A stretch of DNA of 64,000 nt from an uncultured Hormoscilla sp. (GTDB lineage: Bacteria; Cyanobacteriota; Cyanobacteriia; Cyanobacteriales; Desertifilaceae): NCBI GenBank assembly GCA_963921275.4, contig OZ001293.3:5696001-5760000 (forward strand), written 5' to 3'. The translations under genes and the position numbers were made by a program. Shown one piece after another: positions 53,801-54,140 of the stretch; the stretch's first letter is position 1, and every line of letters begins with the position of its first letter. The notes beneath the pieces were generated by a model, which saw nothing but the letters and a program-made list of their open reading frames with translations, did not search any database and was not told the DNA's origin.

Positions 53801-54140
53801 AATGTGAACAATGTTGCTGAGTCTCCTACTGATATAGTTCTTAGTAATGGCAGCGTTAATTCTAATTCCCGTGTGGGTGCGATCGTGGGGACTTTCGGAA
53901 CTAGCGATCCCGACGGGGGAAATACTTTTACCTACGGGTTAATCTCGGGTTATGCGCTGCGCGCACGCTACGCGATTGGTGACGATGATAACGCTGCTTT
54001 CACTATAGTAGGGGACCAATTGCTAATTAATAGTTCTCCGGCTTTGGAGATGAGGTCGAGTTACAGCGTCCGCGTTCAGACTATTGACGTTACTGGGGCC
54101 AGTTACTCGGAGGCTTTGATTATTAATGTGAACTCAGTTG
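47827..54140 (+). repeat. Cadherin-like tandem repeats, ~300-bp unit
   Basis: Near-identical units; 1200-bp higher-order duplication at 48121-50520. Confidence 0.95.
53952..53975 (+). repeat. 24-nt dispersed element ATGCGCTGCGCGCACGCTACGCGA
   Basis: Absent from the paralogous repeat at 2661-2700; other copies at 1234, 1868, 5028(-), 8232, 58708 and 60429. Confidence 0.92.

What the first reader, a model, noticed from the sequence alone, without database searches (positions are those of the whole stretch)
53952..53975. Filled and empty sites show the 24-mer inserts cleanly without target duplication
The paralog reads GGTT|TTGGTGACGATG (reverse complement of 2661-2700); here it reads GGTT[ATGCGCTGCGCGCACGCTACGCGA]TTGGTGACGATG. 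Removing the copy at 1234 likewise restores the empty hairpin A. The unit is stop-free in five frames (six for the G variant). It occurs about seven times in the window and is often nested in other repeats. It fits the SDR class, whose mobilisation mechanism I understand to be unresolved; the co-occurring group II intron family makes an RT-based route a testable idea.
Basis: partly seen in the sequence, partly recalled or inferred. Interest (0 to 1): 0.72.

Follow-up and report, generated by a model that had tools for sequence, protein, structure and literature searches.

The report
Tiny double mini-hairpin mobile DNA
This 24-base insert is a real, recently spread copy of a tiny cyanobacterial mobile element whose sequence matches two unusually stable DNA mini-hairpins, so it likely moves as single-stranded DNA rather than through RNA, by an enzyme that is still unidentified.

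Summary
Confirmed. The 24-mer is an insertion: 151 of 156 paralogous cadherin-like repeats and 14 of 14 contexts from sister species lack it, and no target is duplicated. It has about 220 copies in the genome.

'Clean' is only half the story: at 75 of 159 independent sites the last target base (A) reads T.

On the reverse strand the unit is two G-N-A triloop mini-hairpins. G and A are fixed, N varies, and stems change in compensating pairs across sister families and other cyanobacteria. That fold is published as far more stable in DNA than in RNA. A 21-base HIP1 insert on a Nostoc punctiforme plasmid, fitting the description of SDR5, has the same build.

Copy number does not follow reverse transcriptases: a complete genome with 270 copies has one weak hit. 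The intron route is therefore weakly supported. No parent element or enzyme was found.

This exact site is filled in five separate repeat lineages, possibly by paralog conversion.

Verdict: new variant of the SDR5-type class. The scan noted this family earlier elsewhere in this genome. I could not read Elhai 2008.

The parts
53952..53975 (-). 24-nt element (family F1); on the - strand: T, hairpin 1, hairpin 2, T
53966..53974 (-). hairpin 1: 3-bp stem, G-N-A loop; shared by sister families and other cyanobacteria
53953..53965 (-). hairpin 2: 5-bp stem, G-N-A loop; stem differs by compensating changes between families
53976..53979 (-). target bases 5' of the element; here off-consensus (CCAA; family consensus BCGA), 5 mismatches of the restored 8-mer to HIP1
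2661..2700 (+). empty paralogous site (insertion point between 2686 and 2687)
53720..54484 (+). host reading frame: last cadherin-like repeat plus RTX tail; one Phe codon becomes nine codons (YALRARYAI), net +8 aa
1234..1257 (-). F1 copy (G variant) inside a hairpin repeat; exact empty form exists 4 times
1868..1891 (-). F1 copy, C-start form with T at target -1
5028..5051 (+). F1 copy, T at target -1
8232..8255 (-). F1 copy, C-start form, same host hairpin site as the copy at 1234 but another variant
58708..58731 (-). F1 copy
60429..60452 (-). F1 copy
31795..31816 (+). sister family F2 (22 nt, shorter second stem); two more copies near 23515 and 35179 on the - strand
73..87 (+). sister family F4 (15 nt: five T, hairpin 1, T)
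98..112 (+). sister family F5 (15 nt: five T, CC/GG-stem mini-hairpin, T)

Best explanation
The 24-mer is a non-coding mobile element of the SDR5 type that has inserted without target duplication, and it likely travels as a folded single-stranded DNA that a still unidentified, probably HUH/Y1-like, enzyme acting in trans would join into a single-strand cut next to CG-A. Shown: it is an insertion; it is polar, with the short target always 5' of the strand that carries the G-N-A loops; net gain is 24 bases; about half of the sites have T in place of the target A; copies cluster locally by family. Inferred: the single-stranded DNA intermediate (about 0.7); local copying from a nearby donor; a one-base exchange at the cut, so that 25 bases replace one, invisible here because the incoming base is also A; a dedicated enzyme. 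The copy at 53952 itself may have arrived second-hand, by short-tract conversion from another filled cadherin repeat.
For: Loops with their positions left free are G-N-A in 213 of 220 (loop 1) and 177 of 191 (loop 2), and in 209 of 219 and 113 of 115 in the 15-nt sisters. In another family's genome they are G-N-A in 99 of the first 100 listed of 270, with all four N (counted by eye). PMC13037366 section 2.3: of 64 triloops only GNA forms the mini-hairpin; stems GC/GC or CC/GG; the RNA tetraloop version melts at 39 C against 76.5 C for DNA. The same review says two consecutive mini-hairpins bind SSB poorly and the motif resists nucleases. DNA parameters fold F1 into the two hairpins, RNA parameters do not. 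A target 5' of the element on one strand, without duplication, is the polarity of IS200/IS605 and REP single-strand transfer (strand specificity and hairpin recognition in PMC8266576 passages; target polarity recalled). Neighbours within 5 kb share family in 47% of 433 pairs (null 23%, maximum 31% in 2000 permutations) and share the last base in 83% of 65 F1 pairs (49% expected). They share strand in 58 of 81 pairs within 500 bp.
Against: No enzyme or parent was found. The four Y1 genes seen in this genome are not flanked by this element; the flanks carry other palindromic or tandem repeats. One rich genome (G246, 86 copies, 90 contigs) has no Y1_Tnp match and another (G167, 96 copies) no RAYT match, while RAYTs occur in 61 of 68 genomes, rich or poor. 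A pure single-strand circle insertion does not explain 25 bases replacing one. The IS608 guide rule (recalled) fits A-ended F1 only, not F2, F4 or F5. Folding energies are not better than shuffles (z -0.1 to -1.1). In other cyanobacteria only 14 of 34 distinct second hairpins have G-N-A or G-N-N-A loops on the same strand, 4 are flipped, 16 are other, and 5 of 34 hold a G-T pair. Local clustering could also come from imported genome tracts.
Confidence: 0.45

Rival explanations
1. No dedicated enzyme. Nuclease-resistant mini-hairpin DNA fragments, or a folded donor strand, are captured or copied by host repair at nicks made near methylated CG-A/HIP1-like sites, using 2-4 bases of microhomology. 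Paralogous repeats then spread filled alleles by short gene conversion.
For: Explains the donor-linked junction bases (C-start copies have T at -1 in 35 of 37), the cases where CG was added or the left flank sits closer to consensus than the empty paralog, A-ended copies almost only before TC (55 of 114 against 1 of 40), and five filled repeats at one off-consensus site, where about 0.003 would be expected from the per-site rate. No enzyme family tracks the element. Elhai 2015 suggests directed cutting at HIP1.
Against: Neighbouring F1 copies share no flank sequence beyond the family consensus. Against matched genomic sites the median best flank match is unchanged for F1 and F5; only a tail is enriched (F1 10% against 5%; F2 13% against 2%; F4 18% against 4%). 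Exact 3' ends and fixed lengths look enzyme-made.
Confidence: 0.27
2. RNA route: a small RNA is copied by a group II intron or other RT, primed at a nick, giving an exact 3' junction and a looser 5' junction.
For: 93 RVT_1 matches in this genome and two intron domain V/VI hits in the window. The exact 3' and variable 5' junctions and a one-base mismatch resemble RT template jumping (recalled).
Against: DNA-type loops. No correlation within 28 rich genomes (rho -0.08). G179 (one contig, 270 copies) has one weak RT hit and G252 (88 copies, 170 contigs) none, while G014 and G165 have 10-11 RTs and 1-5 copies. No clear bias to the gene strand.
Confidence: 0.12
3. A duplex site-specific recombinase acting at HIP1-like cores inserts the unit with a one-base staggered overlap, and repair resolves each mismatched junction to A or T.
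For: All four A/T junction combinations occur in T-start copies. HIP1-linked site-specific recombination is reported for Synechococcus PCC 7002 (cited in PMC4390886).
Against: The last base is shared by neighbours and tied to TC targets, so it looks donor-encoded, not randomly repaired. C-start copies are never A-ended. Only 6 of 159 F1 sites restore to exact HIP1. A 24-bp duplex cannot easily circularise (general knowledge).
Confidence: 0.1
4. The filled state is ancestral and the empty paralogs arose by precise deletion.
For: The five filled repeats lie within one 39-tip part of the repeat tree.
Against: 151 of 156 copies and 14 of 14 outgroup contexts are empty. The five inserts differ from the consensus by 0-1 base each while their flanks differ by 14-41 of 180. 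The same unit stands at 159 unrelated flanks.
Confidence: 0.02

Closest known systems
SDR5 (and SDR4/6) of Nostoc punctiforme, Elhai et al. 2008 (not held, not read; known from passages in PMC4390886, PMC5861425, PMC13756078)
   Same: Tiny, dispersed, multiple-of-three, precise insert at a CG-A site. The 21-nt insert between bases 3 and 4 of HIP1 on plasmid pNPUN01 (2 copies with identical flanks in 200 kb) is also two G-N-A mini-hairpins with the target on the 5' side.
   Different: 24 nt and other stems. Target relaxed: 6 of 159 exact HIP1, 53 with the CGATCG core, none at this site. Found outside the lineage of the Nostoc-like genomes, whereas PMC5861425 states that none was found outside Nostocaceae. 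Sister forms of 15 and 22 nt. I identify the plasmid insert as SDR5 only from length and position.
IS200/IS605 ends and REP/RAYT systems (PMC8266576, PMC6006769, passages)
   Same: Single-strand hairpin recognition, strand polarity, short target, no duplication; some REPs have G-started triloops.
   Different: No GTAG-type guide that predicts the cut for all families, no transposase gene beside the element, insertion into genes, one-base exchange at the junction.
Mini-hairpin DNA d(GCGNAGC) at phage G4 origin, ssiA and N4 promoter (PMC13037366)
   Same: Same loop and stem rules.
   Different: There a fixed protein-recognition signal; here the whole body of a mobile unit. The word 'cyanobact' has 0 occurrences in the review.
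Double-hairpin elements of fungal mitochondria and Helitron/IS91 rolling-circle elements (recalled; search listing only)
   Same: Two adjacent hairpins, or a 3' hairpin end with no duplication.
   Different: Longer, other hosts, no known G-N-A rule; no matching enzyme was tested here.

Membership tests
SDR class (Elhai 2008) | about 21-27 nt, dispersed at many unrelated sites, filled and empty alleles | tested here: met
   24 nt, 159 flank clusters, empties in paralogs and orthologs; size range recalled and quoted in scan notes
SDR5 | 21 nt long | tested here: not met
   24 nt; 21-nt relatives occur in other cyanobacteria
SDR5 | inserted between bases 3 and 4 of HIP1 | tested here: inconclusive
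   A-ended copies fit a cut at CG-ATC (55 of 56 before TC), but only 6 of 159 sites are exact HIP1 and this site has 5 mismatches
SDR5 | published consensus sequence and structure | not testable with these tools
   paper not held; proxy from plasmid pNPUN01 shows the same build with other stems
REP/REPIN with RAYT | copies flank a cognate RAYT gene | tested here: not met
REP/REPIN with RAYT | extragenic location | tested here: not met
   59 of 145 single-flank F1 copies lie inside long ORFs
IS200/IS605-derived miniature element | ends match an autonomous element in the genome | tested here: not met
   no long repeat begins with the element's 5' end after CG-A/T; tnpA loci of G179 hold it only as an occasional insert
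IS200/IS605-derived miniature element | single-strand circle intermediate | not testable with these tools
   needs bench work
Retroelement mobilised by group II intron RT | dependence on an RT and an RNA form | tested here: inconclusive
   no tracking with RT count; RNA form not testable with the runs listed
Classical MITE | terminal inverted repeats and target duplication | tested here: not met
   only the A-start/A-end form before TC can be read as a 2-base duplication

The most novel reading that the evidence does not exclude
SDR5 and this element belong to one widespread cyanobacterial class of 15-33-base mobile DNAs built from ultra-stable mini-hairpins. They move as protected single-stranded DNA through an unrecognised cut-and-join activity that swaps one target base, a mobility pathway with no known parent element and a possible tool for writing very short inserts.
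Probability: 0.3. Interest if true: 0.8.

Novelty: new variant of a known kind. Interest (0 to 1): 0.52.

Why it matters
How SDR elements move has stayed open since 2008; a 2026 paper still calls SDR5's function unknown. The loop rule turns 'RNA or DNA intermediate' into a direct test, and the junction table gives a fingerprint that any candidate enzyme must reproduce. The class reaches well beyond one family (5' signature in 146 of 301 genomes; low counts can be chance in HIP1-rich genomes) and adds eight amino acids inside genes. The class itself is known and the enzyme was not found, which caps the score.

Tried and rejected
Elhai 2008 and Delaye 2011 are not held.

Target hairpin or loop preference: none against sequence-matched controls in five families.

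Long flank homology between neighbours: none for F1. The excess over column-shuffled flanks mostly vanished for F1 and F5 with a genomic null.

Parent element: none in the genome, 0 in viral contigs, only chance-level plasmid matches.

Genes flanked by the element on both sides were unrelated housekeeping or unknown ORFs. A tnpA in G179 with a copy on each side proved to be an IS605-type element carrying two inserts; 3 exact signature copies in 10 tnpA loci against about 1.3 expected is not an enrichment.

Sequencing runs: no RNA holder listed. Contigs of 3 of 4 runs show the exact 24-base absence with 1-2 other differences, but near-identical empty paralogs exist, so this shows no polymorphism.

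The rule that the last hairpin's stem predicts the target fits F1-F6 here but fails for the Nostoc plasmid insert.

Searches for a paper on this element or on G-N-A loops in such elements found nothing beyond citations of Elhai 2008. Subscription journals are mostly not searched.

Full report
OBSERVATION. The 24-mer stands at 53952-53975, and the paralog at 2500-2860 aligns with one exact 24-base gap. There are seven copies in the window, none in 100 shuffles, and 228 in the 7.0-Mb genome at up to 4 mismatches. The genome has 4738 HIP1 octamers, so it is cyanobacterial; earlier scan notes call the genus Hormoscilla (not tested by me). The claims on the copy at 1234 and on stop-free frames hold. 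The insert turns one Phe codon of the last cadherin-like repeat into nine codons.

INSERTION, NOT DELETION. Of 156 repeat copies 151 are empty; the nearest empties differ from ours at 2 of 180 flank bases. None of 14 distinct repeat contexts from three sister genomes has it. In two regions holding 13 F1 copies, 5 had a findable ortholog and all 5 were empty. The exact pattern is in 8 of 41 genomes: 169 copies here, 4-60 in the four congeners, 1-2 in three others. The spread is recent.

ANATOMY. On the reverse strand the unit is T, a 3-bp hairpin, a 5-bp hairpin, and T or A. Sister families share the plan: F2 (141 hits, 22 nt, shorter second stem), F3 (21 hits, another second stem), F4 and F5 (15 nt), and others up to about 33 nt. 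All have a short target on the 5' side of the strand that carries the G-N-A loops. With loop positions left free, loops are G-N-A in 213 of 220 and 177 of 191 F1 cases, 131 of 138 and 140 of 150 in F2, 113 of 115 in F4 and 209 of 219 in F5. In G179, from another family, 99 of the first 100 of 270 listed are G-N-A with all four middle bases (counted by eye). PMC13037366 (section 2.3 read; passages) reports that only GNA of 64 triloops forms the ultra-stable DNA mini-hairpin, with GC/GC or CC/GG stems. It also reports that the RNA tetraloop form is far weaker, that the motif resists nucleases, and that two in a row bind SSB poorly. Against: computed folding is no better than shuffles. F3 and the Nostoc unit are not folded into two hairpins by the program. 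In other cyanobacteria the second hairpin is G-N-A or G-N-N-A in only 14 of 34 distinct stems, flipped in 4 and other in 16 (62 sites, 57 with a hairpin).

JUNCTIONS. F1 prefers BCGA followed by TC; F2, F5 and F6 prefer CYGA followed by a purine. Only 6 of 159 F1 sites restore to exact HIP1 and 53 to its six-base core. The base before the unit is A at 76 and T at 75 of 159 sites. Empties show that the T replaced a target A in 4 of 5 orthologs. Of 17 F1 paralog pairs at 90% flank identity or more, 8 were clean, 4 had an exchanged base and 5 differed in length. C-start copies have T at -1 in 35 of 37; A-ended copies stand before TC in 55 of 56. F4 and F5 keep the A (88 of 90, 172 of 173). The simplest reading (inference) is that 25 bases replace one target base, which is invisible when the incoming base is A, as here. 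In the Nostoc-like genomes and on the Nostoc plasmid the T form prevails.

LOCAL SPREAD. Among 501 single-flank copies, pairs within 500 bp number 81 against 17 expected and share strand in 58. Pairs within 5 kb share family in 47% against 23%. F1 neighbours share the last base (83% against 49%) but not the -1 base, the first base or loop 1. There is no clear bias to the gene strand, no target-fold preference and no flank homology between F1 neighbours. Imported genome tracts could mimic the clustering.

THIS SITE IS UNUSUAL. It is off-consensus, yet five repeat copies in three genes carry the unit at the same base. They fall in five separate clades; three have empty sisters at 0-2 differences while filled copies differ from each other by 14-41. 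F1 has no other insertion in these 300-base windows, which hold 1756 CGA sites. At the genome-wide rate five fresh hits are very unlikely. Either conversion between paralogs with tracts of a few bases, or an unseen longer specificity, is needed. The pair is a sound record of the junction but perhaps not a primary event.

RANGE AND SDR5. The 5' signature (target plus hairpin 1) is in 146 of 301 genomes of the phylum, in 36 of 37 of family f6 (up to 270 copies), and at 46-100 copies in some other families. Low counts may be chance next to HIP1, and six fetched G232 sites showed no consistent second hairpin. Named Snowella, Merismopediaceae, ESFC-1 and Allocoleopsis records hold 21-nt forms inside HIP1. 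SDR5 is described as 21 nt (PMC13756078, passage), inserted between bases 3 and 4 of HIP1 (PMC4390886, passage) and not seen outside Nostocaceae (PMC5861425, passage). In 200 of 355 kb of N. punctiforme plasmid pNPUN01 a 21-nt unit in exactly that position occurs twice, with identical flanks, and is two G-N-A hairpins. F1 therefore works like SDR5 and belongs to its class, but it is not SDR5 itself by length, stems or target. Elhai 2008 could not be read, so it or its supplements may already describe the loops or junctions. My recollection that it favoured an RNA intermediate is unchecked.

WHAT MOVES IT. RT: 93 matches here, present in 58 of 68 genomes, but one weak hit in G179 and none in G252, and no trend among 28 rich genomes. 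Y1/RAYT: four genes here, none flanked by the element. The profile hits 61 of 68 genomes, with a weak trend among rich genomes (rho 0.41, p 0.03, kinship not corrected), but it is missing in G167, and Y1_Tnp is missing in G246 (both draft genomes). No parent element was found. I commit to a single-stranded DNA intermediate joined by a trans-acting, probably HUH-like enzyme (0.45), with host repair capture as the main rival (0.27), RT (0.12) and a HIP1 recombinase (0.10).

OTHER PAPERS SEEN. PMC8266576 and PMC6006769: passages, plus one section of the latter. PMC3116915, PMC2884548, PMC6513891: passages citing Elhai 2008; listing only.

VERDICT. Real, recent and SDR5-like; a new variant of a known kind. 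The scan had already noted this family and its sisters elsewhere in this genome. Not seen in the few lines shown of those notes, nor in my paper searches: the DNA mini-hairpin rule, the one-base exchange, the repeated filling of one site and the failed link to RTs. Interest 0.52.

Noticed in passing
window 53720-53802 (near 53757): The 2007-aa cadherin-repeat frame ends at 53802 and its tail continues in another frame. Contigs of three runs lack one base at 53757: a frameshift in this copy or an assembly error.
   Followed up: partly
window 1753-1786 and about 15 other sites in G000: A 33-nt family that joins a GGC/GCC-stem mini-hairpin like that of the Nostoc 21-nt unit to the second hairpin of F1.
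   Followed up: partly
G000 families F1-F6: Two target classes: F2, F5, F6 prefer CYGA then a purine; F1, F3, F4 prefer BCGA then T. This could mean two enzymes or guidance by the element; unexplained.
   Followed up: partly
G000:C1 5.5-6.0 Mb: C-start F1 copies are concentrated here (13 of 25) and A-ended ones are rare (2 of 25): a local burst or an imported tract.
   Followed up: no
G000:C1 370739 and about 30 related copies: F1 rides inside a roughly 300-copy repeat, probably the group II intron family (not tested); there the insertion added two extra bases, net +26.
   Followed up: partly
G000:C1 6191353-6191424; G004:C7 90018-90111: Head-to-tail arrays of three or four units, one with a flipped second loop.
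   Followed up: no
L001 1417-1965 (G000:C1 241711-242259): IS200-profile Y1 gene with a Y-x-x-x-Q-x-x-H-H motif like subclass 1.2 of PMC6006769, a degenerate HUH motif, and arrays of its own palindromic repeats on both sides.
   Followed up: partly
L246 1469-1900 (G179): A 21-nt unit inserted in frame at the start of an IS605-type tnpA and another just after its stop codon.
   Followed up: yes
G000:C1 1227182-1227607 and 4242208-4243005: Two RT fragments unlike the group II intron RTs (24-29% identity to the reference); type not determined.
   Followed up: no
G000:C3: A 31-kb contig with 17.6% GC, unlike the rest of the assembly; possibly foreign.
   Followed up: no
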